DNA of 30,209 bases from an uncultured Gammaproteobacteria bacterium (GTDB lineage: Bacteria > Patescibacteriota > Patescibacteriia > Patescibacteriales > JAGXOH01), in contig CAYRJF010000001.1 in NCBI GenBank assembly GCA_964424365.1, forward strand, positions 1 to 30,209, read 5' to 3'. Below, one piece after another: positions 6,480 to 25,297 of this stretch. Below the pieces are notes generated by a model. The model was not told the DNA's origin. It saw nothing but the letters and a program-made list of their open reading frames with translations, and searched no databases. The position numbers were made by a program, and so were the translations under genes. Position 1 is the stretch's first letter. Every line of letters starts with the position of its first letter.

Positions 6480-7859
6480 ATGACTAAAAAACTTTTCACC
6501 TTTTTTTTAATCTTTAGCTTCTTGCTTGGTGTTTCCGGCTGTCAAATTGGAGCCCCCCAGGAAGATCCTAGAGAAAAAATTAATCTAAATTACTGGAGGC
6601 TGTGGGATGACAGTGCTTCATTCAAAAAAATTATTGAAGAATATGAATCCCAACATCCCAACATCACTATAAACTACCGAAAACTTCGCTATGACAATTA
6701 CAGGGATGCCCTACTCAATGCTATGGCCGAGGATAGAGGGCCGGATATTTTTTCCATACACAACACTTGGATGAAAGAATATAAAAATAAAATCTCCCCT
6801 GCTCCGGAAGAAGTTGAGATGAGCAAGGTAAAAATGGAAGGGACCTTTAAAAAAGAAAAGGTTTTGGTCGTAGAAACTAAAAAGTTAATTACTGTAAGTG
6901 AGCTGGAAAACAAGTTTTTAGATGTGGTTTATGATGATGTAATTTTAAGAAATGACCAAGGAATGGAAAAGATTTATGGACTACCCTTGTCAGTGGACAC
7001 TTTAGCAATGTATTACAACAAAGATCTTTTAAACAATGCCGGTATCGCTGAACCACCTAAATATTGGGATCGCAATTTTCAACAAGCAGTTAAAAAAATA
7101 ACTAAACAAAACAATGAAGGAAGTATAGTTCAGTCCGGGGTGGCCCTGGGAGGAGCTTATAATATTGAGAGGGCAAGTGATCTTCTCTCTATATTAATGC
7201 TTCAAAGTGGCGCCACCATGATGACTGAAGACGGCTCAGTCATGTTTCATTCCGCACCAACCGGAATGGAGGGTTACAACCCCGGCTTAGAGGCCTTGGA
7301 ATTTTATACAGATTTTGCTAATCCTGGTAAAGAAGTATATTGCTGGAATCACTCGCTAAAAAACTCCTTGGAACTTTTTAGTGAGGGAAAGCTCGGCATA
7401 ATGTTTGGGTATGCCTACCACTTACCGTTAATAAAGGCCCGGGCTCCAAAACTAAATTTTAACGTAGTTAAGCTCCCTCAAATTAAGGGCAGAGAAGTTA
7501 ATTTTGCTAATTACTGGGTAGAAACGGTTTCTCAGAAAAGCGAACACAAAGATGCGGCCTGGGATTTTATTCAATTTGCAACAGAAAAAGAACAAGTTGA
7601 GTCCTACTTAAAAAGCTCCAACAAACCAACCGCTTTGCGTTCTTTGGTTAACACTCAGACCGAGGACCAAGAAATCGGTGTTTTTGCTCAACAACTCTTA
7701 ACCAGTCAAAGTTGGTATGAAGGCTATGACGCCCTAGCCGCAGAAGAAGCTTTAAGAAAGATGATTGAGGAAACTAATGCCCGAGAAAATAAGATAGATA
7801 AAATTATGACCAGAGCGGCAAATAAAGTTCAACAAACCACGGAACCTAAATATGAATAA
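6480..7859 (+). CDS. Extracellular solute-binding lipoprotein (sugar-binding family 1-like). Start ATG 6480
   Basis: Signal peptide with lipobox VSGC; F...HPNITINY, GPDIF, YGLPLSVDTLAMYYNKDLL, F..GKLGIMFG, AAWDFIQF. Confidence 0.85.
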   Translation: MTKKLFTFFLIFSFLLGVSGCQIGAPQEDPREKINLNYWRLWDDSASFKKIIEEYESQHPNITINYRKLRYDNYRDALLNAMAEDRGPDIFSIHNTWMKEYKNKISPAPEEVEMSKVKMEGTFKKEKVLVVETKKLITVSELENKFLDVVYDDVILRNDQGMEKIYGLPLSVDTLAMYYNKDLLNNAGIAEPPKYWDRNFQQAVKKITKQNNEGSIVQSGVALGGAYNIERASDLLSILMLQSGATMMTEDGSVMFHSAPTGMEGYNPGLEALEFYTDFANPGKEVYCWNHSLKNSLELFSEGKLGIMFGYAYHLPLIKARAPKLNFNVVKLPQIKGREVNFANYWVETVSQKSEHKDAAWDFIQFATEKEQVESYLKSSNKPTALRSLVNTQTEDQEIGVFAQQLLTSQSWYEGYDALAAEEALRKMIEETNARENKIDKIMTRAANKVQQTTEPKYE

Positions 7860-11475: not shown

Positions 11476-11883
11476 ATGTTTAAAAAAAATGTGTCAAAGC
11501 GCAATCAACCTAAAAAAATTGAGACCGTAATTGGTCCCAATATAAAAGTTAAGGGAAACTTTAACGGAGAAGGAAACACTGTTATAGAAGGGTCCTTGGA
11601 GGGAAGCTTGAAGACCAACGGAGATGTTTATATCGGAGATAATGCTAAAGTTTTAGCTAACATTAAATCAAAAACTGCTAGAGTCGGGGGGGTGGTTACT
11701 GGAGATATTTACGCCAGCGGACATTTAGAAATTGTTTCCTCAGCTCGCATTTCCGGAAACATTGAGTGCAAGACTCTTTCAGTGGAAAGCGGCTCTCTGT
11801 TAAACGGCCAATGCACTATGTACTCGCAAACCCAGGAGAAAGAAACCAAAAAAGAAGAGGTAAATCCAAAATCAAAAAAATAA
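11476..11883 (+). CDS. Bactofilin (polymer-forming cytoskeletal, CcmA-like)
   Basis: ETVIG....VKG.F......IEG.LEG.L...GDVYIG..AKV.ANI....A.V.G.V.GDI.A...LEI...ARI.GNI....LSVESG....GQC beta-helix repeats. Confidence 0.93.
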   Translation: MFKKNVSKRNQPKKIETVIGPNIKVKGNFNGEGNTVIEGSLEGSLKTNGDVYIGDNAKVLANIKSKTARVGGVVTGDIYASGHLEIVSSARISGNIECKTLSVESGSLLNGQCTMYSQTQEKETKKEEVNPKSKK

Positions 11884-11899: not shown

Positions 11900-12664
11900 A
11901 TGTATGTTTATATCTATGACGGTATTGTTAATAAAAGAAAAAATCGGAAAACTTTAATAAAAATTGAAAAAAAAATTACTGATCTGGGATTAAACGGAAA
12001 AATCGTTCGCTTAGAAGGGATAAAAGACACTGAATCAATTATAAAAAACGAGGTTAGATATCAAGCCAAAACAATCGTGGCCGTGGGGAACGACAGCACC
12101 TTAAACACTGTGATAAATGCCGTTTTAAAACAAAATTTAACCGCCTCCTCTCGGGAATTGCCTGTAATCGCCCTAATTCCACTAGAAGCTTCTAACAATT
12201 TAATTTCCGCCTCATTAGGAATTCAATCTCCGGAAGCGGGTTGTGAGGCCTTGTTATCCAGACGCCTAAAAAATATTAATATAGCTCAAGCAAATCAGGA
12301 ATATTTTTTAACCCAGGCGGAAATCTTGGGTAATTATACTAAGATTCAAATTGAGAAAGATTATTCTATAGAAATAAAAAGGGGTGGAGAAATAAACATC
12401 ATCAACCTGCCTTTAAAAAAAGAGTGGGGTGATTTTTTAAAAATTGAATCTGGAAAAAAGATTCTGAAGCTCTTAATACGCCCTCCCAAAACCACCCGAG
12501 CCAGTTTAATTTCCGAAAGTATTTTTTCTTTAAATAAGCTAACAGTCACTAAAGAAACTAAAAAAATAATTATCGACAACTGTAAAGAAATTGCCGCCCC
12601 GGCAACTATTAAAACCACTGATAAATTTTTGAATTTAATAGTTGGTAAAAATCGTTATTTTTAA
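11900..12664 (+). CDS. Diacylglycerol-kinase-family-like protein with a degenerate catalytic motif
   Basis: TIVAVGNDSTLNTVINA (canonical GGDGT), ALIP....NN...SLGI. Confidence 0.6.
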   Translation: MYVYIYDGIVNKRKNRKTLIKIEKKITDLGLNGKIVRLEGIKDTESIIKNEVRYQAKTIVAVGNDSTLNTVINAVLKQNLTASSRELPVIALIPLEASNNLISASLGIQSPEAGCEALLSRRLKNINIAQANQEYFLTQAEILGNYTKIQIEKDYSIEIKRGGEINIINLPLKKEWGDFLKIESGKKILKLLIRPPKTTRASLISESIFSLNKLTVTKETKKIIIDNCKEIAAPATIKTTDKFLNLIVGKNRYF

Positions 12665-13320
12665 CTCTTGTTCTGGACTGGCTCAGCAACAACCACCAAC
12701 CTCTGCTTTTCAGAAAAAACAGGATGGCAGGTAAATAAGGTTAGTTTTTCTTCTTCAGAGGGTTTTAAAATGCTTAAGTCCTCAGCTTCCACCAAAAAAC
12801 TTCTTTTAACCTGATAAACATATTTTTCCTCTTGATAATAAACCATTATCCGATCTCCTGGTTCTAGTTTATCCAGGAAATAAAAAGTCAGGTTGTGGGG
12901 TGGTAAATATTTAAACCTGTGAGCAGTTATAATAGTATTTCCCCGCCTACCGGGACGGCTTCCTTGTGGCAATAACCAAGCCCCTTGGGAAAGCCCTGTG
13001 GCAGAATTTTGGCTTTCTGAGAGGGGAGTGTTGACATTGATCAAGGGTATAATTATCCTATTTTTTACTTTTAAGCTTTGCCCTAAAACACCCTGTTTGT
13101 TTGTCTGTTCAAGACTCAAAGGATCGTCCTGTCCTTGAAAAATATTGTCAATTTTTTGAACTGATCTTTGGTGCCTGAATAATTGCAAATAAGACTTTAA
13201 CTTAGGATAAACCGGTAAAAAAACCAGGTATAAAATTACCAATAAACCGCCCAAAATCAAAATTTGGGAAAAAGATTTTAAAATTAAATCTTTGGCTTCC
13301 TTTTTTTTAAGCTCGCGCAT
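12661..13320 (-). CDS. Sortase (class E/D-like)
   Basis: N-terminal TM; IIIPLINV, G..PG..GNTIITAHR, L.PGD.I, LTLFTCHP, QRLVVVA; His-Cys-Arg triad intact. Confidence 0.93.
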   Translation of the reverse strand: MRELKKKEAKDLILKSFSQILILGGLLVILYLVFLPVYPKLKSYLQLFRHQRSVQKIDNIFQGQDDPLSLEQTNKQGVLGQSLKVKNRIIIPLINVNTPLSESQNSATGLSQGAWLLPQGSRPGRRGNTIITAHRFKYLPPHNLTFYFLDKLEPGDRIMVYYQEEKYVYQVKRSFLVEAEDLSILKPSEEEKLTLFTCHPVFSEKQRLVVVAEPVQNKS

Positions 13321-16141
13321 AGACCTTAATACCTAAAGAGCCTCCGAAAAGAAAAAGTGATAATATTAACAAAAAGGAGAGCTCTTTATCGTTAAATCCC
13401 GAAGGCGCTAATTTTACGCCCTTGACTTCTACTTCACGGACTTCTAAGGGAGTTTTAGCGGTAATTGTTTTATGATTTTTTGCGGTTGCTTGAGAAAGAT
13501 TATGATAAATCCCTTCTTTTACTTCTTCTCCGATAACGACGGAATATTTAATTTCCTCCTCTTCTCCCGGAGACAAGTCACCCAGGCTCCAATTATAGGT
13601 ATCTTCTTGACTGGATTTATAAAAAAATCCTTGGGGCAATTTATCAATTAAAACCACCCCTAAAGCCTCGGATGCCCCTTCGTTTATAACTCTAACTGTA
13701 TAATCAACGATGTCTCCCGGGTTGGCAAATGAAACACTAACCGTCTTGGAAATTCCTAAAATCGGATCTAAGTCTTCAGGTGTTGAGGTGGGAGTAGCCG
13801 GATCTTTTGACGATTCTTCCGGTGTACCGGTTGCCCCTCTGCCCGCTTGAAAAATCCAAACAGGAGTTCCGCCGGTCCCTCCTGAGCCCCCTCTGCTTTC
13901 TTCTTTTTGACAATTTGAGCTACATCCGTCTCCGGAATTTGTATTTCCATCGTCGCATTCCTCGCCGGCTTCTACCAAACTATTCCCACAGATTGGTTTT
14001 TTTTCATTTCCTCCCCCGTTGCCGGGTTCTTGAAAGTGGTTGTTAAACTCTGCCAGGGCTTCTTTTCCAGAAACCACTTCTACCTCCTGCTCACCCGAAC
14101 CAGGGGTAATTGCCTCCCAATTTTCCCTTGCGGTTTCTTTTAGTAAATATTTTCCCGGACTTAGATCGGTAACTAAAGCCTCTCCGTTTGTTGTCTTTAC
14201 CTGAGTACTGCTACCGGATCCGAATTGAGGAATAATTTCAAACTCCCAATTTAAAGAAGCAGACAGGGCTCGATCATCTTTTGTCGAATCTTGACCGTCT
14301 TGGTCTTCATATTTTTTAATCCTTAAAGACCCCAACGGCTCTCCTTCATAATAATTTACAAAATCCCAGCCGTCTTTAATTTCACCAACACTTAAACTAA
14401 CCGCTTCCTCCGGACCCTCAAGCATCGTCCAATTAAGCGGTAAAGACTCCAGAAGTAAATAATTACCCGCTCTTAAATCGGAAAACTCATAATAACCGGA
14501 GGAGTCGGTGGTGGTTGTGGCCACAATTTCTCCGGGGCTATCTTCAGAATATAAATTTATTTGCCAAGGGTTTTTAGCTAAATATCTGTCTGCGCTTGTA
14601 GTAGCTAAACCGTCTTGATCAATGTATTTTTGACCTGACAAACTGGCGGTTCGATAATTTATAAATTTCATTTTTTGCTTTTCTCCTGTTTTTAAGGAAG
14701 TGGTGGCTTCTCCATTTTTAGGGCTTAAAACAGTCCAACCCGACAATATTTCCTCTCTGATTTTATAATCTCCTTCCTCTAGTTCTGTAAAAGAAAGGCA
14801 ATATTCTCCGGGTTTAGTGCTTAAGGTTTTAGTGCTTGTGGAAATATCGGTTCTATCCAAATCAAAGCTCCAGACATTACCCGTGGCCTCGGTCCGGTCT
14901 AAAGTGGTAGAGGGTAAACCGTCAAAATCCTCATATTTACAAACCTCAATACTGCCTCCTAGGGCCAGTTGGTGATTTCCAAAAATTTTTCCTTCAAGGT
15001 TTTCTTCCCAGGCTAAATTAATTTCATAATTATTTGTTTCCGGAAATGTTTGTTCCCAGTCCGGAATTGTTTTTTCCTTTATTGTATAAGAACCGGCGGG
15101 TAGGCCGGAAAACTTATAACACCCCAAACTATCGGTGGTTTGTGTAGCAATTAAGGAACTATTTTCCAAAACAATCTCCCAGCCCTCAATAAATGGCTCT
15201 TCAGTATCTTTGTTGCCGTTTTGATTTAAATCATTAAATTTACACCCGGAAATTGAGCCGTATTGGCATAATCTGGTGGATATTTGGCTATAAATACTTT
15301 CTAAATCATCTGAAGTGGGGGAGTAATAATATTCTGCCTGAGTTTCCCCTGCAATTTGTTTTAACATATTTTCATTAATATCTCCATTGCTTCCCAGGCC
15401 TATAGTAAACACCTTAATTCCGGCTAAAGCCGCCTCTGAGGCTTTTTCTAAAGCATATTGAACATCTCTGGGGTCTTCCCCGGAACCGCTTCCCTGGGGC
15501 TTGTTTGCCTTTCCATCTGTTAAAAGAATAACCACTTTATTGGCCTGGGGGTTGGCTCGGGAAGAGCTTAGCTCTTCTCGAGCTAAAGCAATTGCATCTC
15601 CAATATTGGTAGGGCCTTCTGCTTCTAAACCATCTAGTGAATTCTTGGTGGAATTATGACTAAAAGAAAGTTCTTTTTCCAGCTTGGCCAGCCAATCACC
15701 CTCTTTTTCATAAGAAAAATATACCAACCCGGACTGATCTTTGTTCCCCAGCAAATTTAAAAACTTACCTGCGGCGGCCTTAGCGGCAGTAATTTTATTT
15801 TCTCTGCTCGGCGTATATTCTGCCGGTCTATGTTCAGCATCTTTTTCTCTACACCACTCTTCAGTTACATTAGTCTCTTGATACTGAACCCACTGCTTAG
15901 AAGGTCCCTTCCATTCCAATTGATACCAAACACAAAGACTGTCTCTTCCTCCATCCTCCATACTCCCGGAGCGATCCAGGGCCAAAACCACATCTATCTC
16001 CGCCTCACAAAGACCTGATTCCTGGGCTCTAACCTGATTTAGCTTATAAGCACTCCAAACGCTTAAAAACAAAATTAAACTGATTGTTAAGAAAAACCTT
16101 AAATTAAAATAATTTAAATTTTTAAACTTTAGTTTTTTCAT
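13307..16141 (-). CDS. Large surface adhesin: signal peptide, vWA, 4 SdrD-B/Cna-B-like repeats, Myxococcus Cys-rich repeat, DUF11, LAPSG sorting motif and TM
   Basis: MIDAS DRSGS ... GPTNIGDA ... LLTDG; repeats GSI.GCKFNDLNQNG / GSI..CKYEDFDG / ASL.GQKYIDQDG / GSL..KKYEDQDG; CGNS.VEAGEECDDGN..SGDGCSSNC; GISKTV...ANPGD.VDYTVRV.N.G. Confidence 0.88.
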   Translation of the reverse strand: MKKLKFKNLNYFNLRFFLTISLILFLSVWSAYKLNQVRAQESGLCEAEIDVVLALDRSGSMEDGGRDSLCVWYQLEWKGPSKQWVQYQETNVTEEWCREKDAEHRPAEYTPSRENKITAAKAAAGKFLNLLGNKDQSGLVYFSYEKEGDWLAKLEKELSFSHNSTKNSLDGLEAEGPTNIGDAIALAREELSSSRANPQANKVVILLTDGKANKPQGSGSGEDPRDVQYALEKASEAALAGIKVFTIGLGSNGDINENMLKQIAGETQAEYYYSPTSDDLESIYSQISTRLCQYGSISGCKFNDLNQNGNKDTEEPFIEGWEIVLENSSLIATQTTDSLGCYKFSGLPAGSYTIKEKTIPDWEQTFPETNNYEINLAWEENLEGKIFGNHQLALGGSIEVCKYEDFDGLPSTTLDRTEATGNVWSFDLDRTDISTSTKTLSTKPGEYCLSFTELEEGDYKIREEILSGWTVLSPKNGEATTSLKTGEKQKMKFINYRTASLSGQKYIDQDGLATTSADRYLAKNPWQINLYSEDSPGEIVATTTTDSSGYYEFSDLRAGNYLLLESLPLNWTMLEGPEEAVSLSVGEIKDGWDFVNYYEGEPLGSLRIKKYEDQDGQDSTKDDRALSASLNWEFEIIPQFGSGSSTQVKTTNGEALVTDLSPGKYLLKETARENWEAITPGSGEQEVEVVSGKEALAEFNNHFQEPGNGGGNEKKPICGNSLVEAGEECDDGNTNSGDGCSSNCQKEESRGGSGGTGGTPVWIFQAGRGATGTPEESSKDPATPTSTPEDLDPILGISKTVSVSFANPGDIVDYTVRVINEGASEALGVVLIDKLPQGFFYKSSQEDTYNWSLGDLSPGEEEEIKYSVVIGEEVKEGIYHNLSQATAKNHKTITAKTPLEVREVEVKGVKLAPSGFNDKELSFLLILSLFLFGGSLGIKVYARA

Positions 16142-16145
16142 ATTT

Positions 16146-17045
16146 TTAGGTTTGTTTTAAATTTTTTTTATAAAACCAGATAAATGAAGTGGCTATTAAT
16201 AAAACGCCCAAAACTATAAACCAATACCAATACTGGCCCAAAAAAAGGCTCCAAGATTTTTCAGACTCCACCACTGCAAAAGCAAAATTCTCTTTTTTTA
16301 TTTTCTCTCCTTGCAACAAAACCGAAATATCAGCGTGATATTTGCCCAGAGAAGATTGGGGTAGATTATAGAAAAGCTTCACTTCTTCCTGTTCTAAGGG
16401 TATAATCGCTGCTTTACTTTCCGGGTAAGGGTAAATAAAATTGTCTATTATTTTGCCCTCCTTAATAATTTTGACTTGTAAATCCGGTTTTAACAAAATA
16501 TTCCCCTGATTGCGGTACTGGGCTTTAATCTCCAGGGGTTCGCCTTTCATGATTACGTAATTTTTTGGCGAAACCGAAGCGCTTAGTTTTACTATTTCCT
16601 GATCTGTAACCTTGATTACAACCTGCCTGCTGACTCTTTGAGCCACTGAGACAGAAACCTTTTCCGAAGAAGTGTTTTGAGGGTTATATTCCACAACCAA
16701 ACTTCCGCTATATTCACCATTAGGTAAAGTGTCCGGAAGCTTTATTTCCACATCCACCCCTTCTTTACCCTCTCCCTCTATCTCTAGCTCTGTTATTTCA
16801 GACTGATTATAAAAAAACTTTGTCCAGCTTTTTATGTCTCCTTCTGCCAGTAAAGCGAATTTAAGGGTCTTTTGGTTGTTGTTAAAAACCTTTAATTCTT
16901 CCTTTATCATCTGCCCTCTTAGGGCATTGTTAATTTCAACCGGCTTACTCATCAATCCGATTGCTTGAGCCTGGGGAACAAAAAACGCAAAAAACAGAAA
17001 AATTAAGGCAGACAGAGTTGTTTGAATTTTAATTTTTCTAAACAT
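16146..17045 (-). CDS. DUF916/DUF3324-like (WxL-interacting-type) two-Ig protein with C-terminal TM. Start ATG 17045
   Basis: Signal peptide ending AQA; V.I.LPDTLPNGEYSGSLVV; YRNQGNILLKP; G.Y.A.I; TM YWYWFIVLGVLLIATSFIWFY followed by KKNLK. Confidence 0.65.
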   Translation of the reverse strand: MFRKIKIQTTLSALIFLFFAFFVPQAQAIGLMSKPVEINNALRGQMIKEELKVFNNNQKTLKFALLAEGDIKSWTKFFYNQSEITELEIEGEGKEGVDVEIKLPDTLPNGEYSGSLVVEYNPQNTSSEKVSVSVAQRVSRQVVIKVTDQEIVKLSASVSPKNYVIMKGEPLEIKAQYRNQGNILLKPDLQVKIIKEGKIIDNFIYPYPESKAAIIPLEQEEVKLFYNLPQSSLGKYHADISVLLQGEKIKKENFAFAVVESEKSWSLFLGQYWYWFIVLGVLLIATSFIWFYKKNLKQT

Positions 17046-17053
17046 ATTTTTTC

Positions 17054-17094
17054 TATCCAGGGAGGAGAGGGGGAGACCCCCTCTCCTTTGGATA
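17054..17094. other. Strong intercistronic hairpin between the secreted subunit and the DUF916-like gene
   Basis: aggagaggggg-aga-ccccctctcct (11 bp) extended by tatcca/tggata. Confidence 0.75.
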
Positions 17095-17104
17095 ATTAAA
17101 TTAC

Positions 17105-18256
17105 TCAGTTGGAAACACAGACCGGGCAACACTCCCGAAAATTAGCAAACTTAGCGTCCAGAGTCATAGTACCGCTATAAGTTGAATTCTGGTTCGGAAA
17201 TTTAGAAACCAAGATAGAAAAATCTACCTCTTCCACCTCGGATAAATCTAGAATGTCTTCTAGCCACCTGTGTTTTTCCGGATAATAATTTTTCCAATCT
17301 TCTTCGTTATTACCCACCCGAGCATCGTATCTAACATTGTATACAGTGTCTGTGGTTCCAAATCCCATGTCATCCTGGCTTACGCCTAAGTAAAGACGGG
17401 TATTGCCGGTATTTCTAACTGAGGGCTTGTCAGCGGTTCCCCAGGTAGTATCTCCGGAAATTCTTTTATGAGTATTTAGTTTAACATTTCCGTAATCAAC
17501 TCCGGTAAAATCAACTTCATAAGAAGTTAGGGGTAAATACTCAAAGTGATTTTCCGCCTCATTACTAAACACGCCGGCGCTGTCTAAGGCAAAAATCTTT
17601 ACTCTATACATTCCGGCAGGGTCTTCCCAGATTAACTCCTTGTCCGCGCAATAGACATAAGCGGTCTCTTTCATCAACTCCCCATCCACATCACAAATTT
17701 CGTTATAGTTATAATTCTCAAAAAAAGAGGGTAGGTCGTTGTTGTTGTTTCTGATATTGTTGCAAAACAAGTCATAACCATCTGTCTTACTTAGTCTGGT
17801 TAGACGGTTTTCATCACCTCTTTGCTCCCCGCATCCGCTTAAACCATAATCAGGTGACTCACCTGTTCCCCCGTTTATTTGATCCGGGTTAGAGGGGTCT
17901 TCCGGGTGAAAAGCCACTGTTTCCGGATAATAAATATCAGTATAAACTCCATCTATATCAGAAACACCGTCTGGGTCTGTAACTATAGCACAGATGGAAT
18001 AGCTCGTAGTAGATCCCCAAACCCCGGGTGCGTCAAACTGGGCTCCGGAATTACTACTATCATCTTCCCCTGATAATTCGGAATAAAACCCTTTCATTTC
18101 CCATTTAGCTTTAACAATCGGGGCTGTTCCCCCTCCTTCGTCCCTGGTTAAAGTGGTATTGACTCCGGATTGTCCGTAAGCCGGTCCTACTAAACCCATA
18201 GAGAAAAGCATTGTAATTAGAGCGATCATTCCGCTCCAACGTTTTATCTTTTTCAT
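17105..18256 (-). CDS. Secreted Ig-like protein without a membrane or LPxTG anchor; WxL/TasA-like C-terminal domain; terminal CCPVC
   Basis: Signal peptide ending AYG; IVTDPDG..DI, G.YRVKIFALDSAG, VDYGNV, VRNTGN, YSGTMTLDA; 8 Cys. Confidence 0.7.
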   Translation of the reverse strand: MKKIKRWSGMIALITMLFSMGLVGPAYGQSGVNTTLTRDEGGGTAPIVKAKWEMKGFYSELSGEDDSSNSGAQFDAPGVWGSTTSYSICAIVTDPDGVSDIDGVYTDIYYPETVAFHPEDPSNPDQINGGTGESPDYGLSGCGEQRGDENRLTRLSKTDGYDLFCNNIRNNNNDLPSFFENYNYNEICDVDGELMKETAYVYCADKELIWEDPAGMYRVKIFALDSAGVFSNEAENHFEYLPLTSYEVDFTGVDYGNVKLNTHKRISGDTTWGTADKPSVRNTGNTRLYLGVSQDDMGFGTTDTVYNVRYDARVGNNEEDWKNYYPEKHRWLEDILDLSEVEEVDFSILVSKFPNQNSTYSGTMTLDAKFANFRECCPVCVSN

Positions 18257-18408
18257 ATTTTTTAGTTTTAGTAATTCTTTTGATTAGCTTCCCTCCTGCG
18301 CGAGCTAATCAATTAAGAATTTCTAAAAATCTTTTATTTGTTAATATTAATTTTTTACCAGACCCCCGGCTAAGCACCGGCTTTAGGCCTGGGCCGACCT
18401 TTAATTAA

Positions 18409-18451
18409 AAACGCCCCTGTAAGCTAAAGCAAAGCTTTTACAGAGGCGTTT
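18409..18451 (-). terminator. Intrinsic terminator-like hairpin downstream of the Com-like gene
   Basis: Minus RNA AAACGCCUCUGUA...UACAGGGGCGUUU (13 bp including one G-U), then UUAAUU. Confidence 0.7.
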
Positions 18452-18492
18452 AAATTTCTAATAACTTAGAATGTTTATGCCTGTTATAAAAA

Positions 18493-18705
18493 TTATTTTA
18501 TTTCTTCTTTTTTAAGTTTGTTTTCCTCCACCTCGGATCGGCATCGAAAAATTAGTTCTCCGTTTTCAGATATTAAAATATTAACTGACTTGCATTTGGG
18601 ACATTTTTTTTCTAAATGAACTCCGTCCCTAAATTTATAAATATTAAGCAAGTGGTTTGAACACCGGGCGCACCGCCAAATAAATTGACCGGGGTAATTA
18701 TTCAT
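18493..18705 (-). CDS. Small zinc-ribbon protein, Mu-like Com family
   Basis: RCARCSNHLL-x13-KKCPKCKSVN matches the Com pattern RCxxCxxLL...KCPxCxxxN. Confidence 0.7.
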   Translation of the reverse strand: MNNYPGQFIWRCARCSNHLLNIYKFRDGVHLEKKCPKCKSVNILISENGELIFRCRSEVEENKLKKEEIK

Positions 18706-18734
18706 AATAATTTTCAGAGGACCGCACTTTTAAT

Positions 18735-18810
18735 AAAAAAACCGGAAAAACAAATTAAGAAAATTTGACCCTAAATAATAGGGTTGTCTTTCTAATCCGT
18801 TTCCGGTTTT
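18735..18810 (-). terminator. Long imperfect hairpin plus U-tract in the leader of the Com-like gene (attenuator-like)
   Basis: AAAACCGGAAA / UUUCCGGUUUU outer stem, ACCCUA-UUAUU-UAGGGU apex, U7 about 30 nt before the ATG. Confidence 0.6.
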
Positions 18811-18909
18811 CATCCCCTCCTAAAATTAAGTTTTTAAAATTTAGAAATGTTTCCTTTTCACTCAAGCTGTTTTTCAAACCTTAAACACAAACATTTTAAA
18901 GACAAGAAA

Positions 18910-18937
18910 ATCTTACCAGTTAAGTTTTTTTTGTCAA
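18910..18937 (-). promoter_or_regulatory. Candidate promoter of the Com-like/surface locus
   Basis: TTGACA (18937-18932), 16 bp, TGgTAAGAT extended -10 (18915-18910). Confidence 0.6.
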
Positions 18938-19273: not shown

Positions 19274-19304
19274 TTTTCCACAATTTAACCACAACTTATA
19301 AACA
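19274..19304 (+). promoter_or_regulatory. Three tandem DnaA boxes upstream of dnaA (oriC part 1 / dnaA autoregulation)
   Basis: TTTTCCACA 19274, TTAACCACA 19285, TTATAAACA 19296; exact 11-bp spacing. Confidence 0.75.
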
Positions 19305-19343: not shown

Positions 19344-19508
19344 GTTTTTATTAAAATAAAATTTCAAAAACCATTCTTTTTCCCGGTCCCTGTGTTTCTT
19401 TTTTTTATTTAGCGGTTATTAATTTTAAAAAATACATGATCGCTAAAAAATATTCCCCCCATCGACATAGGGTTGGTAGACTATATTTAAATATTAAAAT
19501 TTAAGGCT

Positions 19509-20885
19509 ATGGATAATAATCAAATCTGGCAAGCTGTTTTAGGTGAAATTGAGCTAAACCTTTCTAAGGCAAATTTTACCACCTGGTTTAAAAACACCTT
19601 TATTCTCTCCCAAGAAAATGGAGAGGTAATAATCTGTGTTCCCAACACCTTCACTAAAACCTGGTTGGAAAAAAAATATCACAGCGAGATTTTAAAGGCC
19701 TTAAAAAATGTTTTAGGGGAAGAAGTAAAAAATATTTATTACAAAGTTCAAACCAAAAAACAAGAAGAAAAAAAAGAAGAGAAAATTAAAGTCAGATCCG
19801 GCTCCTCAAAAACCGACCCAAGTGAGTCCGTAGAAACCAAACCCCAAAACAAACCCTCTTGCAACCGCTTCGGACTTAATCCCAAATATGTTTTTGAAAC
19901 TTTTGTGGTTGGAAAAGGGAATGAGCTCGCCCACGCCGCCACCAAGGCGGTTGCCGCCAACCTGGGCAGGGCCTATAACCCCTTGTTTATTTATGGAGGA
20001 GTGGGGCTGGGAAAAACACACCTTCTTCAGGCGGCGGGCAATGAAGTTTCTAAAAACAGTCGTGTTTTATATACAACCAGTGAAAAATTTACCAATGATT
20101 ACGTACAAGCAGTCCATAGTGGAAAAGCCAAAGATTTTAAAGACTACTATAGAAACGTAGATATGCTTTTAATTGACGATGTTCAGTTTATGGCCGGAAA
20201 AGACGGAACCCAAGAAGAGTTTTTTCACACCTTTAATGAGTTACAGCAAGCGGACAAACAAATTATTATAACCTCTGACAAGCCCCCGAAATCAATCCCC
20301 GCCCTGGAAAAACGGCTTTTGTCTCGTTTTGAGTCGGGAATGGTGGCGGATGTTTCTAAGCCGGACACTGAAACCAAAATCGCGATTTTAGAAGAAAAAG
20401 CTAAAGAAAAAACCTATTCCCTGGAAAGAGAAATTTTAGAATATATCGCCAACAATATCAACAACAACATCCGAGAACTGGAAGGCGCTTTAAATAAAAT
20501 TATTGCTTTTCATGAATTTAACAATTCTACTCCCTCCTTAAAAACCACTAAAAACATATTAAATGATCTGCTGTGTAATCTTCAAGCCAAGAGTGTTTCA
20601 ATTAAAGATATTGTTTCCGCGGTTTGTAGTTTTTATAGTATCAGCAGTAAAGATTTAACCGGAAAAGGGAGGAGAAAAGAATTGGTTTGGCCCAGACAAA
20701 TAGCTATTTTTTTAATGAGAGAGGAGGTTGACGCCTCCTACCCCACAATCGGAAGTGAGTTGGGGGGAAGGGATCACACCACAGCCATGCACGCTTACAA
20801 TAAAATTCTAGAAGAAATAAAAGAAAAAGAAAACGAAAAAATCAAACAAGAAATCGAGTCAATTAAACAACTCCTAAGTTCTTAG
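19509..20885 (+). CDS. dnaA: Chromosomal replication initiator DnaA
   Basis: W..VL..IE..LS..NF.TWF; LNPKYVFETFVVG; YNPLFIYGGVGLGKTHLL; LLIDDVQF; RELEGAL; domain IV PRQIAIFL..GGRDHTTAMHA. Confidence 0.99.
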   Translation: MDNNQIWQAVLGEIELNLSKANFTTWFKNTFILSQENGEVIICVPNTFTKTWLEKKYHSEILKALKNVLGEEVKNIYYKVQTKKQEEKKEEKIKVRSGSSKTDPSESVETKPQNKPSCNRFGLNPKYVFETFVVGKGNELAHAATKAVAANLGRAYNPLFIYGGVGLGKTHLLQAAGNEVSKNSRVLYTTSEKFTNDYVQAVHSGKAKDFKDYYRNVDMLLIDDVQFMAGKDGTQEEFFHTFNELQQADKQIIITSDKPPKSIPALEKRLLSRFESGMVADVSKPDTETKIAILEEKAKEKTYSLEREILEYIANNINNNIRELEGALNKIIAFHEFNNSTPSLKTTKNILNDLLCNLQAKSVSIKDIVSAVCSFYSISSKDLTGKGRRKELVWPRQIAIFLMREEVDASYPTIGSELGGRDHTTAMHAYNKILEEIKEKENEKIKQEIESIKQLLSS

Positions 20886-22369: not shown

Positions 22370-25297
22370 CTAATTATTGTTTATAGTGACATATATTTCT
22401 TTTTCCAGGGTTTCTTTACCGTCCCAAGTGAAAAGTTTGGGGGTGATTTTGTAAGTGCCGCCCACATTGGGTTTGTTCCAATTAAATTCCATAGTTCCTT
22501 GACCCCCTCTAGTTTTATAAATGGAGTCGATTTCACTGGAAGTGGAGGTTAACTCGGAAATAAACTCGACTTGAGCGACTTTAAAATTATTAGAGATATT
22601 TAACTTAAAAGTAAAAGGAAAATCAACCGAAGTTAAAGAAAGGTTTTTTTGGGGTTTTATCCAAGAGACGCTCGGGACAGCGTCTTTTTTGTTGGAATTG
22701 TTTTTATAATTAAAAATTAAGTTTTTTCGAGTGCAATTACCCACCCCATCACAAGACTCTACCCCCAAGTCATGATAACCGCTATTTAGAAAATCAATAT
22801 TTCTATCTAAACTAAAAGGATATGACTTACTGCTTGTGAAGTAATTGTTATTTAGATAATAATTAACTCTATTAATACCCCTCGGGGCGGATGTTTTTAT
22901 TTTTACCACCAAATTTTTACTTGTAATTATCTCTTTGTTGTTTGGTTCCTTAATGTTTAATAGGGGTTTAAATTCAGGTCTGTGCACATCATCGTATTTA
23001 GTGGGTATTTCGATTGAAGAAGTAGAGGAAAACTCATTTTCTCGCGCCCAGTTTTGAACCGCCTTTTCCCAAGAGTTAAACTGTGGATCTTGACTCGGGT
23101 CTTCCGGAGCCTCTCCCAGGGGGTCTTCTTTGTTAATATAATAAAGTATACAATGGGGGTCTGCTTGGTATTCCACCTCTTTGATATACTTTTCCGGGGT
23201 GTGTTCTGTGGCCAACAAACCGGAAACAGTGTCAATTTTTACGGTTTGTTTAAAATCAAGCTCTCCGTCAATTGCCGGCTTTCCGGTTTTTATATCCACG
23301 GGTTTTTTAAAAGTCTCAACCGGCGTATCCCCCAAAACTCGGCTCATATAATGATTCCAAATCGGGGCGGCCGCATTACCCCCCGAGGCGCCTCGAACCA
23401 TTTTTTGGTTGTCATTATTTCCTACCCAAACTCCGGCCACCAAAGAAGGAGTATAACCCACTGTCCAAGCGTCTCGGTAATCATTGGTGGTTCCGGTTTT
23501 TGCGGCCACCGGCCGAGAGTCTAGAGTTAACCAGTTGTTTAAACCATAAGTAAAAGAACGCGCTTGATTGTCACTTAAAACACTATTAATCATTCGGGCG
23601 ACTTTGGGTTCAATTATTCTTTCTTCTTGTTTTTTATGTTCCTCAATCACCCTTCCTTTAGAATCTTCTATTTTAGTAATTACGCTTAAAGGGTGGATTA
23701 CGCCCTCACGAGCAAAAACACTGTAGGCGTTAGCGTGTTCAATTAATTTTACTTCAGCGCCCCCTAAAACCAAAGAAAGGCCAAAACGACTCCTATCTTC
23801 AAAAGTGGAATAACCTAAATTTTTTAAATATTCAAAGACATTATCCAGGCCGGCTAAATACAAAGCTTTTACAGCCGGGATATTTAAAGATCCGGCCAAA
23901 GCTTTTCGAATACTAATCGGGCCATGTTCTTCCAGGTCGTAATTTTTTGGTTTATAGGGCTGATTGGGATTGTTAGAGAAATTGGTAACCACATCAAACA
24001 ATTTGGTTTGAGGGGTAAAACCTTTGGTAAATAAATTTGAATAAACCAAGGGCTTCATTGAGGAGCCCGGCTGTCTTTTGGCTGTGGTAACATTAAATTT
24101 TCCGTCGATTTTCTCGTCAAAATAATCCCGGGATCCCACCATTGCCAATATTTGCCCGGTTTTAGGATCCAAGGAAACCAATCCGGCATTCTCGGCATTA
24201 TATTTTTCCTGATTTTTCTTCACTCCTTCCTCTACCACCTCTTCGGCAATTTCTTGTTTATAAGTATCCAGGGTGGTATAAATTTTTAATCCCCCTTGTT
24301 CAAGCATTTTCTGGCCGTATTTTCGGGAAAGAAGACTTTTAACATACATTACAAAATGAGGAGCTTTAATATTTGAAGAAGGTTGTCTAAATTCCAGTTC
24401 TTCTTTTTGAGCTTCTTCCATTTTAGTTTCAGAAATATAGCCCTGTTCATTCATTAGTTTTAAAATATAATCTTTTCTTTTCAGTAAAAGCTCTTTGTTT
24501 GGTCCATAAGGGGAGTAAAAACTAGGGGCTTGAGGAAGAGCGGCTAAGATGGCTGATTCCGCCAAACTAATATCCTTTACATTTTTACCAAAATAATAAC
24601 GACTGGCAGCTTCTACTCCATAAGTGGTTCCTCCATAAGGAATTTCATTTAAATAAAGTTGGAGAATTTCGTTTTTGGAAAATTTTTGCTCTAGCCTATA
24701 GGCCAAGATTAATTCTTTTATTTTTCGGGTGAAAGTTTTTTCCGGAGTTAAAACCGCGTTTTTTACCAATTGTTGGGTAATAGTAGAACCCCCGGCTTTT
24801 TTCCTATAAATTATATCCGTAATAGCGGTTCGAAAAATTGCCCAGAGACTAAAGCCCTGGTGCTCATAAAAATTCTTATCCTCCATGGCAATTGTGGCGC
24901 TTTCCATATAATCGGGAATATCTTCCAGGGTAACCAAAGTTCTTTGCTGCTCCCCATGAATTTCATAAAGCAAGGTATCTCCGGTGCGGTCATAAATTTT
25001 TGTACTTTGGGCCACCTCTCTTTGAATTAACTGATTGGGATCAGGAAGATTTTGAGAAGCCCAAATAAAAGTACCTAAAATCGTTGAAACCCCCAAAAAA
25101 AACAGGATTATTAAAATACCTAGAAATTTTTTACTAAAAATCAGGTTTTTTAGAGAAAGTTTCTTTTTTTTACGCTTAGAAAAACCGTGATTTCTGTGGT
25201 TGGAGCCGGTTCTTTTAATTTCCTGGAGGCCGGGTTTATTTGTTTGGTTTTTCCAGGATTTATTATGTTTGTGTTGATTTAATTGAGGGATGGGCAT
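22370..25297 (-). CDS. Class A penicillin-binding protein (PBP1A-type) with C-terminal Ig-like domains
   Basis: TM; GT51 motifs MEDKNFYEH.G, GGSTITQQLVKN; TP motifs SSMK, SLN, KTGT; C-terminal Ig-like I..VNYYLN. Confidence 0.95.
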   Translation of the reverse strand: MPIPQLNQHKHNKSWKNQTNKPGLQEIKRTGSNHRNHGFSKRKKKKLSLKNLIFSKKFLGILIILFFLGVSTILGTFIWASQNLPDPNQLIQREVAQSTKIYDRTGDTLLYEIHGEQQRTLVTLEDIPDYMESATIAMEDKNFYEHQGFSLWAIFRTAITDIIYRKKAGGSTITQQLVKNAVLTPEKTFTRKIKELILAYRLEQKFSKNEILQLYLNEIPYGGTTYGVEAASRYYFGKNVKDISLAESAILAALPQAPSFYSPYGPNKELLLKRKDYILKLMNEQGYISETKMEEAQKEELEFRQPSSNIKAPHFVMYVKSLLSRKYGQKMLEQGGLKIYTTLDTYKQEIAEEVVEEGVKKNQEKYNAENAGLVSLDPKTGQILAMVGSRDYFDEKIDGKFNVTTAKRQPGSSMKPLVYSNLFTKGFTPQTKLFDVVTNFSNNPNQPYKPKNYDLEEHGPISIRKALAGSLNIPAVKALYLAGLDNVFEYLKNLGYSTFEDRSRFGLSLVLGGAEVKLIEHANAYSVFAREGVIHPLSVITKIEDSKGRVIEEHKKQEERIIEPKVARMINSVLSDNQARSFTYGLNNWLTLDSRPVAAKTGTTNDYRDAWTVGYTPSLVAGVWVGNNDNQKMVRGASGGNAAAPIWNHYMSRVLGDTPVETFKKPVDIKTGKPAIDGELDFKQTVKIDTVSGLLATEHTPEKYIKEVEYQADPHCILYYINKEDPLGEAPEDPSQDPQFNSWEKAVQNWARENEFSSTSSIEIPTKYDDVHRPEFKPLLNIKEPNNKEIITSKNLVVKIKTSAPRGINRVNYYLNNNYFTSSKSYPFSLDRNIDFLNSGYHDLGVESCDGVGNCTRKNLIFNYKNNSNKKDAVPSVSWIKPQKNLSLTSVDFPFTFKLNISNNFKVAQVEFISELTSTSSEIDSIYKTRGGQGTMEFNWNKPNVGGTYKITPKLFTWDGKETLEKEIYVTINNN

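What the first reader, a model, noticed from the sequence alone, without database searches (positions are those of the whole stretch)
12661..18937. Candidate undescribed surface-assembly system: Com-like regulator, secreted subunit, DUF916-like anchor/chaperone, vWA adhesin and sortase, next to oriC
Seen: five co-oriented minus-strand genes behind one promoter-like element. The adhesin stop overlaps the sortase start by 14 nt, and the DUF916-like stop is 4 nt from the adhesin start. Three different surface-retention modes sit side by side: no anchor, C-terminal TM, and sorting motif plus TM. Established: Firmicutes WxL/csc clusters combine WxL proteins, a DUF916-DUF3324 membrane protein and an LPxTG protein, and sortase pili use vWA tip adhesins. 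Seen: this locus has no true WxL motif and no pilin YPKN motif, it has its own sortase, and it has a zinc-ribbon gene at its head. Inference: a hybrid non-covalent fibre or lattice with a sortase-anchored adhesin for host attachment in an episymbiont, benefiting from origin-proximal gene dosage.
Basis: partly seen in the sequence, partly recalled or inferred. Interest (0 to 1): 0.7.

Follow-up and report, generated by a model that had tools for sequence, protein, structure and literature searches.

The report
Patescibacterial WxLIP-like surface adhesion cassette
This is a gene cassette conserved across ultrasmall Patescibacteria that encodes a secreted protein of an undescribed family, a membrane-tethered distant relative of the Gram-positive WxL-interacting protein and a large von Willebrand-type adhesin (here with its own sortase), so it is a good candidate for how these episymbionts build their attachment surface.

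Summary
The five co-oriented genes, the 14-nt overlap, the 4-nt gap and the three retention modes are all as described.

The system is not five genes. In 60 species-level Patescibacteria loci the conserved core is the secreted 383-aa protein followed directly by the 299-aa membrane protein (41 of 44 testable loci). A VWA adhesin follows in 25 of 37. The zinc-ribbon gene (15 of 55) and the sortase (5 of 60) are accessories. dnaA is adjacent only in the closest relatives.

The "DUF916-like" call holds as remote homology. The profile comparison with Firmicute WxLIP gives 97% probability over the full length, and solved WxLIP structures are the top Foldseek hits. The 383-aa protein is an unannotated two-β-sandwich family (891 representative clusters). 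It is not a WxL protein and not a pilin.

Two terminator-like hairpins and a structured leader argue against a single promoter. "Com-like" is unsupported.

Best reading: a WxL-cluster-like surface display module with a different client, in which the tethered WxLIP-like protein docks the secreted protein while a sortase-anchored MIDAS adhesin binds the host. Docking is inferred, not shown.

Side finding: a conserved AAAGGTCGA element precedes nearly every gene of the family and also TasA-like genes.

The parts
18910..18937 (-). Sigma-70-like promoter match (TTGACA-16-TAAGAT, TG-extended), downstream of tRNA-Asp and upstream of the zinc-ribbon gene
   Evidence: This is a consensus match only. 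A similar TTGACA-N17-TAATAT follows the tRNA in relative L005.
18736..18811 (-). Long hairpin followed by a U7 run in the zinc-ribbon leader (terminator- or attenuator-like)
   Evidence: -30.1 kcal/mol, z -3.3.
18493..18705 (-). 70-aa zinc-ribbon protein (CxxC...CPKC plus invariant H18 and C55); an accessory gene of unknown role
   Evidence: The family sits upstream of p383 in 15 of 55 loci. Only generic Zn_ribbon_8/FmdB-type sub-threshold hits were found, and no Com family hit.
18409..18451 (-). Intrinsic-terminator-like hairpin (17 bp) with a U-run, directly after the zinc-ribbon gene
   Evidence: -23.1 kcal/mol, z -4.84. The same arrangement occurs in L072 and in many loci.
18394..18402 (-). 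Conserved cis element AAAGGTCG(G/A), 146 nt upstream of the p383 start codon
   Evidence: It occurs once in the 30-kb window. In 60 loci, 50 of 73 occurrences directly precede a p383-family gene. L005 carries the variant CAAGGTCGA.
18257..18393 (-). Structured p383 leader with two strong hairpins; the second presents a conserved CAGGAGGGA loop
   Evidence: -44.1 kcal/mol, z -4.85. In L005 the loop is conserved while the stems have changed.
17105..18256 (-). p383: Sec-secreted, anchorless protein of an unannotated Patescibacteria family. It has two beta-sandwich domains; the first carries a Cys-rich helical insert. Six cysteines are invariant.
   Evidence: no family hit; 489 homologues; alignment; AF2 pLDDT 86.9; only generic tandem-Ig Foldseek hits, TM 0.3 or lower; 891 representative clusters.
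16146..17045 (-). p301: signal peptide, two Ig-like domains and a C-terminal TM helix; a remote homologue of WxLIP (DUF916-DUF3324)
   Evidence: hhalign 97.1%, E 6.8e-11, full length; top Foldseek hits 9i25_C and 9i1y, E 5e-11; 7 of 46 members hit WxLIP_PGBD weakly; AF2 pLDDT 84, disordered loop at 127-134.
13307..16141 (-). 944-aa adhesin: signal peptide, VWA domain with intact MIDAS and a ~55-aa insert, prealbumin-like (SdrD_B/SpaA) stalk domains, a Cys-rich DUF4215 repeat, DUF11, and a cell-wall sorting signal
   Evidence: The head (residues ~20-390) is the part conserved across loci.
13397..13411 (-). Sorting motif LAPSG (adhesin residues 911-915), followed by F, a hydrophobic segment and KVYARA
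   Evidence: Orthologues carry L(P/A)xTGF at the same place, including every locus that has an adjacent sortase.
12661..13320 (-). Membrane-anchored sortase with His/TLFTC/Arg; its class is unresolved (class C 72.5 bits and class E 68.6 bits, both far below the 160 cut-off)
   Evidence: The start overlaps the adhesin stop by 14 nt.

Best explanation
This is a lineage-wide Patescibacteria cell-surface display and adhesion cassette, built on the same logic as Firmicute WxL/Csc clusters but with different clients.

Shown:
- All proteins downstream of the zinc-ribbon gene are exported or membrane-anchored.
- p301 is a remote homologue of WxLIP, with the same layout of signal peptide, two Ig-like domains and a C-terminal TM helix.
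- p383 and p301 are almost always adjacent, and a VWA/MIDAS adhesin usually follows.
- The adhesin here carries an LAxTG-type sorting signal and is translationally coupled to a sortase.

Inferred:
- p301 stays tethered in the membrane and uses its first domain to dock and stabilise the anchorless p383 module. [quoted passage not shown]
- In genomes with a second, longer paralogue, the p383 module sits at the C-terminus and would display an N-terminal extension.
- The VWA adhesin, fixed to the wall by the sortase (by a plain TM helix or a dockerin in other lineages), binds a ligand on the host cell through its MIDAS site.
- The zinc-ribbon gene and the conserved AAAGGTCGA leader are control elements of unknown mechanism.
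For: - Synteny: p301 follows the p383 gene or genes in 41 of 44 loci with enough sequence, and the VWA gene follows p301 in 25 of 37. It is also seen.
- p301 is related to WxLIP: hhalign 97.1%, E 6.8e-11, over both domains. Solved E. faecium WxLIP chains rank 1-3 of 1946 Foldseek hits. Weak Pfam WxLIP_PGBD hits occur in 7 of 46 members.
- WxL clusters on Firmicute plasmids show the same order: small secreted protein, WxLIP, large surface protein.
- WxLIP is predicted to bind WxL by inserting a loop-derived strand (PMC10599100).
- p301 also resembles PapD-like chaperones (TMt up to 0.47).
- Long p383 paralogues carry the module at the C-terminus, as large WxL proteins do.
- The sorting motif L(P/A)xTGF is shared by orthologues, and every sortase-bearing locus has it.
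- The MIDAS motif and the sortase catalytic residues are intact (sequence).
Against:
- p383 shows no similarity to the WxL domain. Its best structural matches are generic tandem-Ig proteins with TM 0.3 or lower, so an incomplete fold that needs a donated strand is not demonstrated.
- p301 falls below every Pfam and NCBIfam cut-off. Its sequence-only hit to EfmWxLIP1 is not significant (E ~0.6).
- Twelve of 37 loci lack the VWA gene after p301.
- Expression evidence is minimal.
- p383 is unusually conserved (~50% identity across classes). That could point to a role other than a displayed adhesin.
Confidence: 0.5

Rival explanations
1. Two-component surface layer. p383 is the abundant lattice subunit and p301 is its membrane-anchored stalk, as with SlaA and SlaB in Sulfolobales. 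The VWA adhesin is a separate passenger.
For: - p383 is secreted, has no anchor, and is always paired with a TM-anchored Ig-domain protein.
- It has its own long, strongly structured leader after a terminator. Long, structured leaders are, from my own knowledge, a feature of some highly expressed S-layer genes.
- The same leader motif precedes TasA-like matrix genes.
A literature search found no paper naming a Patescibacteria S-layer protein.
Against: - S-layer proteins usually diverge fast, whereas p383 keeps ~50% identity across classes.
- There is no expression-level evidence.
- There is no similarity to any solved S-layer protein among the top Foldseek hits.
- One to three paralogues occur, some with extra adhesin-like domains such as LTD and DUF4215.
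Confidence: 0.2
2. A non-covalent fibre. p383 polymerises by donor-strand exchange, with p301 acting as a membrane-tethered PapD-like chaperone or assembly platform and the VWA protein as tip or base.
For: - Foldseek matches p301 to PapD-like chaperones (Caf1M, FimC, DraB, CfaA; E ~1e-8 to 1e-7, TMt 0.4-0.47).
- Foldseek matches p383 to chaperone-usher subunits (CsuE, CfaB and CfaE; probability 0.95-1.0).
- p383 has a conserved, low-confidence N-terminal segment (TGLTRxxGGGxxP) ahead of its first strand.
Against: - The matches are generic Ig-fold similarities with low TM (0.2-0.3 for p383).
- The p383 model is confident and appears complete as a monomer (pLDDT 86.9).
- The N-terminal segment lacks the alternating hydrophobic pattern expected of a donor strand (read from the alignment).
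- No homo-oligomer prediction was possible.
Confidence: 0.15
3. A classical sortase-assembled pilus: VWA tip adhesin, p383 as shaft pilin and a pilus-specific sortase.
For: The VWA adhesin with CnaB/SpaA-like domains and a sorting signal resembles tip pilins. The sortase scores slightly best against class C.
Against: - p383 and p301 have no sorting signal and no YPKN pilin motif (sequence).
- The sortase is absent from 55 of 60 loci.
- The sortase score (72.5) is far below the class C cut-off of 160, and class E scores nearly the same.
- The LAxTG-type motif is, from established knowledge, the class E housekeeping signal.
Confidence: 0.03

Closest known systems
WxL / Csc cell-surface clusters of Firmicutes (small WxL protein, WxLIP = DUF916-DUF3324-TM, large WxL protein, often a small LPXTG protein)
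   Same: - The middle gene is a homologue of WxLIP, with the same signal peptide, two Ig domains and TM layout.
- The gene order is the same: small secreted protein, WxLIP-like protein, large multidomain surface protein.
- Short and long forms of the client module occur, with the module at the C-terminus of the long form.
- One component carries an LPXTG-type anchor.
   Different: - There is no WxL domain anywhere. The client is an unrelated, larger two-domain family.
- The large protein is a VWA/MIDAS adhesin without the client module.
- The anchor signal sits on the adhesin, not on a small CscD-like protein.
- A dedicated sortase is present in a few lineages.
- The hosts are Patescibacteria rather than Bacillota.
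- p301 is below the Pfam thresholds for both WxLIP domains.
Sortase-dependent pili with VWA tip adhesins (for example RrgA, SpaC, GBS104)
   Same: A VWA domain with MIDAS and an insertion, a stalk of prealbumin/CnaB-like domains, a C-terminal sorting signal and an adjacent sortase.
   Different: There is no shaft or base pilin and only one sortase substrate. The sortase is not classifiable as class C, and it is missing from most loci.
Chaperone-usher systems (PapD-like chaperone with donor-strand complementation)
   Same: p301 has a two-Ig-domain fold that Foldseek aligns to PapD-like chaperones. Its gene sits next to that of a secreted Ig-fold subunit.
   Different: The organism is a monoderm with no usher. 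p301 is membrane-tethered. The similarity is at fold level only, and no strand exchange has been shown.
Two-component archaeal S-layer (SlaA and SlaB)
   Same: A secreted, anchorless subunit is paired with a beta-sandwich protein carrying a C-terminal TM helix, and the two genes are adjacent.
   Different: No sequence or structural relationship was found. p383 is small and highly conserved. This is a functional analogy only.

Membership tests
WxL/Csc cluster (definition in PMC10599100: adjacent genes with at least one WxLIP and at least two WxL proteins) | A WxLIP protein: DUF916 (PGBD) plus DUF3324 (HBD) plus a C-terminal TM helix, with a signal peptide | tested here: inconclusive
   The architecture is identical and remote homology is supported (hhalign 97.1%, E 6.8e-11; top Foldseek hits). 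No member reaches the Pfam cut-offs, however (best E 0.0078 for WxLIP_PGBD). The conserved NQIDKxxxYFDLK motif is not evident in the aligned consensus.
WxL/Csc cluster | At least two proteins with a WxL domain (dual Trp-x-Leu motif) | tested here: not met
   No WxL hit in Pfam or NCBIfam for any gene. The p383 profile against a WxL profile matches only the signal peptide, at 8% probability. There is no WxL motif in the p383 sequence.
WxL/Csc cluster | A small LPXTG-anchored protein (CscD) in the cluster | tested here: not met
   The only sorting signal is on the 944-aa VWA adhesin.
Sortase-dependent pilus locus | A major pilin with a pilin motif (YPKN Lys) and a cell-wall sorting signal | tested here: not met
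   p383 and p301 lack both features (sequences; alignment).
Sortase-dependent pilus locus | A class C (pilus-polymerising) sortase | tested here: not met
   NCBIfam class C scores 72.5 bits against a cut-off of 160, and class E scores 68.6. Only generic Pfam Sortase membership is met.
Sortase-dependent pilus locus | A tip adhesin with a VWA domain and a sorting signal | tested here: met
   VWA 1.6e-17, SdrD_B 8.9e-26, SpaA 9.2e-17. The C-terminus is LAPSG, a TM segment and a basic tail.
Sortase family (PF04203) | Sortase domain with catalytic His, TLxTC Cys and Arg | tested here: met
   Pfam 2.1e-25, above the cut-off. ITAHR, TLFTC and QRL are present in the sequence.
Phage Mu Com-type zinc-finger translational activator | A match to the Com zinc-ribbon family, and an RNA hairpin target at the regulated start codon | tested here: not met
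   No Com family hit for the window protein or any of 16 relatives. Only generic zinc-ribbon families were hit, all below cut-off. RNA binding cannot be tested here.
Chaperone-usher pilus | A PapD-like chaperone plus an outer-membrane usher plus subunits with an incomplete Ig fold | tested here: inconclusive
   p301 has fold-level similarity to chaperones. No usher-like gene was found in the window or in the conserved cassette. Completeness of the p383 fold could not be examined.
TasA/SipW matrix fibre | A SipW-type signal peptide (TIGR04088) on the subunit | tested here: not met
   No hit for p383. Such genes exist near the cassette in other loci but not in this window.

The most novel reading that the evidence does not exclude
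The p383 and p301 pair is the previously unidentified outer protein layer, or a usher-independent donor-strand fibre, of Paceibacteria/ABY1-type Patescibacteria. It would descend from the same ancestral monoderm module as Firmicute WxL/WxLIP. It would be co-controlled with TasA-like fibres through a phylum-wide AAAGGTCGA leader element, so that one regulon builds the whole episymbiont attachment surface.
Probability: 0.15. Interest if true: 0.85.

Novelty: new variant of a known kind. Interest (0 to 1): 0.6.

Why it matters
Patescibacteria make up a large share of bacterial diversity and mostly live attached to other cells, yet outside the type IV pili of Saccharibacteria almost nothing is known about their surface or attachment machinery.

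This cassette gives three concrete, widely conserved and so far unannotated targets:
- a secreted family with about 900 representative clusters
- a WxLIP relative in Patescibacteria, outside the Firmicutes where WxLIP has been described
- an orthologous VWA/MIDAS head

These can be tested by multimer modelling, metaproteomics, and cryo-ET or genetics in the few cultivable lineages.

The link to WxLIP also suggests that the tethered two-Ig scaffold that holds an anchorless client is an old monoderm solution, not a Lactobacillales speciality.

The conserved AAAGGTCGA leader offers a handle on gene regulation in a phylum where essentially no promoters or regulons have been defined.

Tried and rejected
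- **Family searches on p383.** Pfam and NCBIfam gave nothing for the window protein. Scanning all 35 aligned members gave only weak Big/PKD hints. The profile against PDB sequences gave nothing.
- **Foldseek on the p383 model.** Only generic tandem-Ig hits were returned (integrin legs, AgI/II, arrestin, transglutaminase, CsuE, CfaB), with TM 0.3 or lower. I did not assign a fold family.
- **p383 against other profiles.** Against WxL and against p301, only the signal peptides aligned.
- **Word-indexed homologue search for p301.** It found only 5 and then 18 relatives. The family proved common once neighbours of p383 genes were examined directly.
- **Sequence-only link of p301 to EfmWxLIP1.** Not significant. 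Only the profile-profile and structure comparisons were decisive.
- **'Com-like'.** Rejected.
- **Rfam.** Nothing was found in the leaders at the gathering threshold or at E up to 1.
- **Hairpin after the motif.** A downstream hairpin is frequent, but the z-scores were no better than for an upstream control region, so I do not claim a conserved RNA structure across the whole family.
- **RNA evidence.**
  - No RNA run holds the window.
  - Saanich-type marine metatranscriptomes gave one 169-nt contig on the L003 homologue.
- **Multimer prediction.** Not possible within the structure-prediction cap.
Full report
**1. The observation**

One search shows five co-oriented minus-strand ORFs:
- a 70-aa zinc-ribbon protein, 18493-18705
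- a 383-aa protein with a Sec signal peptide and no anchor ('p383'), 17105-18256
- a 299-aa protein with a signal peptide and a C-terminal TM helix ('p301'), 16146-17045, start as in P0121
- a 944-aa adhesin, 13307-16141
- a 219-aa sortase, 12661-13320

The 14-nt overlap between adhesin and sortase and the 4-nt gap between p301 and the adhesin are exact.

Pfam and NCBIfam confirm the domain content:
- The adhesin has VWA, SdrD_B/SpaA prealbumin-like domains, a Cys-rich DUF4215 repeat and DUF11.
- The last gene has a sortase domain with an intact His/TLFTC/Arg signature.
- p383 matches nothing.
- p301 gives only faint Ig-like hits.

The adhesin has a complete MIDAS motif (D56-x-S58-x-S60). It ends in LAPSG-F, a hydrophobic segment and KVYARA. 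The window also holds tRNA-Asp, dnaA and dnaN next door.

**2. Is it a system? Neighbourhood survey**

p383 has 489 homologues in the word-indexed search. All named ones are Patescibacteria 'hypothetical proteins', at about 50% identity even across candidate classes. An exhaustive profile search finds 891 representative clusters at E ≤ 1e-3, 600 at ≤ 1e-10 and 325 at ≤ 1e-30.

I fetched 60 species-level loci from GTDB representatives and scored all ORFs with the window proteins. The results:

| Feature | Loci with it / loci testable |
|---|---|
| p301 homologue directly after the p383 gene(s) | 41 / 44 |
| VWA protein directly after p301 | 25 / 37 |
| Zinc-ribbon gene upstream | 15 / 55 |
| Sortase in the locus | 5 / 60 |
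| dnaA adjacent | 1 / 60 (L005) |

- Seventeen loci have two or three p383 paralogues.
- The nearest relative, L072, has synteny identical to the window, including dnaA and dnaN.
- L073 (64% identity) has p383, p301, VWA and sortase at a different genomic location.

So the conserved core is the p383-p301 pair, usually with the VWA adhesin. The zinc-ribbon gene and the sortase are lineage-specific additions. Origin proximity is incidental.

The conserved part of the adhesin is its head, residues ~20-390: VWA plus the first prealbumin-like domain. The stalk and the anchor vary. About eleven orthologues end in L(P/A)xTGF plus TM plus a basic tail, including every locus with a sortase. Others end in a Trp-rich TM helix, and two end in a dockerin-like repeat.

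**3. What p301 is**

- Seven of 46 family members hit Pfam WxLIP_PGBD (DUF916) weakly.
- The family profile aligns colinearly but non-significantly to E. faecium WxLIP1 in the PDB.
- An AF2 model (pLDDT 84) shows two beta-sandwich domains, a disordered loop at 127-134 and a long C-terminal helix.
- Foldseek against the PDB puts the solved WxLIP chains (9i25_C, 9i1y_A and 9i1y_B) at ranks 1-3 (E 5e-11 to 2.5e-10). RbmA, the CEP192 SPD-2 domain and PapD-like chaperones follow.

I then collected seven Firmicute 'DUF916 and DUF3324' proteins from plasmids and compared profiles. hhalign gives 97.1% probability, E 6.8e-11, over 254 columns that span both domains. The control comparisons, p383 against p301 and p383 against WxL, align signal peptides only.

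I conclude that p301 is a remote homologue of WxLIP with the same architecture. It is not a member by Pfam's thresholds.

**4. What p383 is**

The AF2 model is confident (pLDDT 86.9, pTM 0.78). It shows two beta-sandwich domains. The first carries an insert of about 90 residues with helices and four of the six invariant cysteines. The second has an RNxGNxR motif.

- Foldseek gives only generic tandem-Ig matches with TM ≤ 0.3.
- No Pfam, NCBIfam or PDB-sequence relative exists.
- It is not a WxL domain.
- It has no sorting signal and no pilin motif.
- Longer paralogues (430-690 aa) mostly carry the module at their C-terminus behind a 100-200-residue extension. Large WxL proteins are built the same way.

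**5. Comparison with WxL clusters**

In E. mundtii, B. thuringiensis, L. monocytogenes and L. plantarum the order is (LPXTG protein), small WxL protein, WxLIP, large surface protein. The Patescibacteria cassette has the same order: secreted client, WxLIP-like protein, large adhesin.

PMC10599100 defines the cluster as at least one WxLIP and at least two WxL proteins. It predicts that a disordered WxLIP hairpin becomes a strand that completes the WxL sandwich. The cassette fails the WxL-domain criterion, so it is not a member of that family. It plausibly works like one.

**6. Transcription**

The promoter-like match at 18937-18910 is real as a pattern, but three features argue against one simple five-gene operon:
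- A hairpin with a U7 run lies between it and the zinc-ribbon gene.
- A 17-bp hairpin with a U-run follows that gene.
- The 146-nt p383 leader folds into two strong hairpins.

The zinc-ribbon protein gives only generic, sub-threshold zinc-ribbon hits and no Com hit.

**7. Mechanism**

Most likely (confidence ~0.5) this is a surface display and adhesion module.
- p301 is tethered in the membrane. By analogy with WxLIP and PapD-like proteins, it docks the anchorless p383 module.
- The MIDAS adhesin binds the host. In this lineage an LAxTG-type sortase fixes it to the wall.

The homology, architecture, synteny, motifs and anchoring signals are shown. The p383-p301 contact and the ligand are inferred.

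Rivals:
- a two-component surface layer (0.2)
- a donor-strand fibre (0.15)
- a classical sortase pilus (0.03), which is contradicted by the lack of a second substrate and the rarity of the sortase

**8. Side finding**

The 8-mer AAAGGTCG occurs once in the window, 146 nt upstream of p383 and just after the terminator-like hairpin.

In the 60 loci (655 kb) it occurs 73 times, and 50 of those directly precede a p383-family gene. Each paralogue has its own copy. The consensus is (T)AAAGGTCGA(A), and L005 has CAAGGTCGA.

At least seven further copies precede other secreted-protein genes. Four of these carry a SipW-type (TasA-like) signal peptide above the TIGR04088 cut-off.

Its role is unknown: transcription start region, regulator site or RNA element. 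Rfam has nothing there.

**9. Limits**

- No multimer prediction was available.
- RNA evidence is minimal.
- Organism names for some MAGs are unreliable. Several 'Gammaproteobacteria' and 'Saccharibacteria' labels come from one automated set, and I could not verify them.

Noticed in passing
window 18394-18402 (-); 50 sites upstream of p383-family genes in L001-L064: A conserved element (T)AAAGGTCGA(A) occurs once per locus, 50-250 nt upstream of nearly every p383-family gene. It often lies just after a terminator-like hairpin and just before another hairpin. It occurs only once in the 30-kb window.
   Followed up: partly
L020 8890-9966, L025 5610-6683, L034 7857-8606, L042 14243-15103, L051 1853-2560; also L028 13871-14614 and L043 11432-13066: The same AAAGGTCG element precedes genes for TasA-like proteins with SipW-type signal peptides (TIGR04088 above cut-off in four). 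It also precedes another secreted-protein type with an AFEAHV(I)NVTA N-terminus. In L020, L034 and L042 the TasA-like gene lies just downstream of the VWA gene. This suggests a shared control signal for extracellular-matrix genes in Patescibacteria.
   Followed up: partly
window 18286-18318 (-); L005 about 6935-6965; L072 about 6945-6980: A hairpin in the p383 leader has a loop that keeps CAGGAGGGA (Shine-Dalgarno-like, ~35 nt before the ATG), while the stem sequences differ between the window and L005 in a compensatory way. The start codon itself has no obvious ribosome-binding site.
   Followed up: partly
L012, L016, L023, L029, L041, L044, L049, L050, L060, L064 (about 80 nt after the motif): One clade shares a longer leader: AAAGGTCGAAGTTGTT...AAGGGTGAAAG...AGTAACT. 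The outer helix shows apparent compensatory changes and there is an invariant GGGTGAAAG segment. This is a candidate structured 5' UTR RNA that is not in Rfam.
   Followed up: no
L024 9317-12961 and L045 9140-11818 (C-termini): Two orthologous VWA adhesins end in a dockerin-like repeat (DINRDGNVD...DLNNDGKIDEYD) instead of a TM helix or sorting signal. This implies cohesin-dockerin-type attachment in some Patescibacteria.
   Followed up: no
window 11476-11883 (+) and 11900-12664 (+); 22370-25297 (-): A bactofilin and a DAGK-type lipid kinase lie convergent to the sortase. A class A PBP with a Big_7 domain lies beyond dnaN. This synteny is identical in L072.
   Followed up: no
window 19274-19293 and 19508-19516: Three one-mismatch DnaA boxes lie in the AT-rich tRNA-Asp to dnaA spacer. 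The window holds 16 one-mismatch boxes against 6.9 expected. This is consistent with an origin, but the cumulative GC skew does not give a clean minimum.
   Followed up: partly
P0057, P0063, P0110, P0141, P0245 (p383-family members): Some family members are fused to LTD, DUF4215 or SpaA-like domains, or sit inside giant proteins of 1594 and 3149 aa. The p383 module is therefore also used as a building block of large surface proteins.
   Followed up: no
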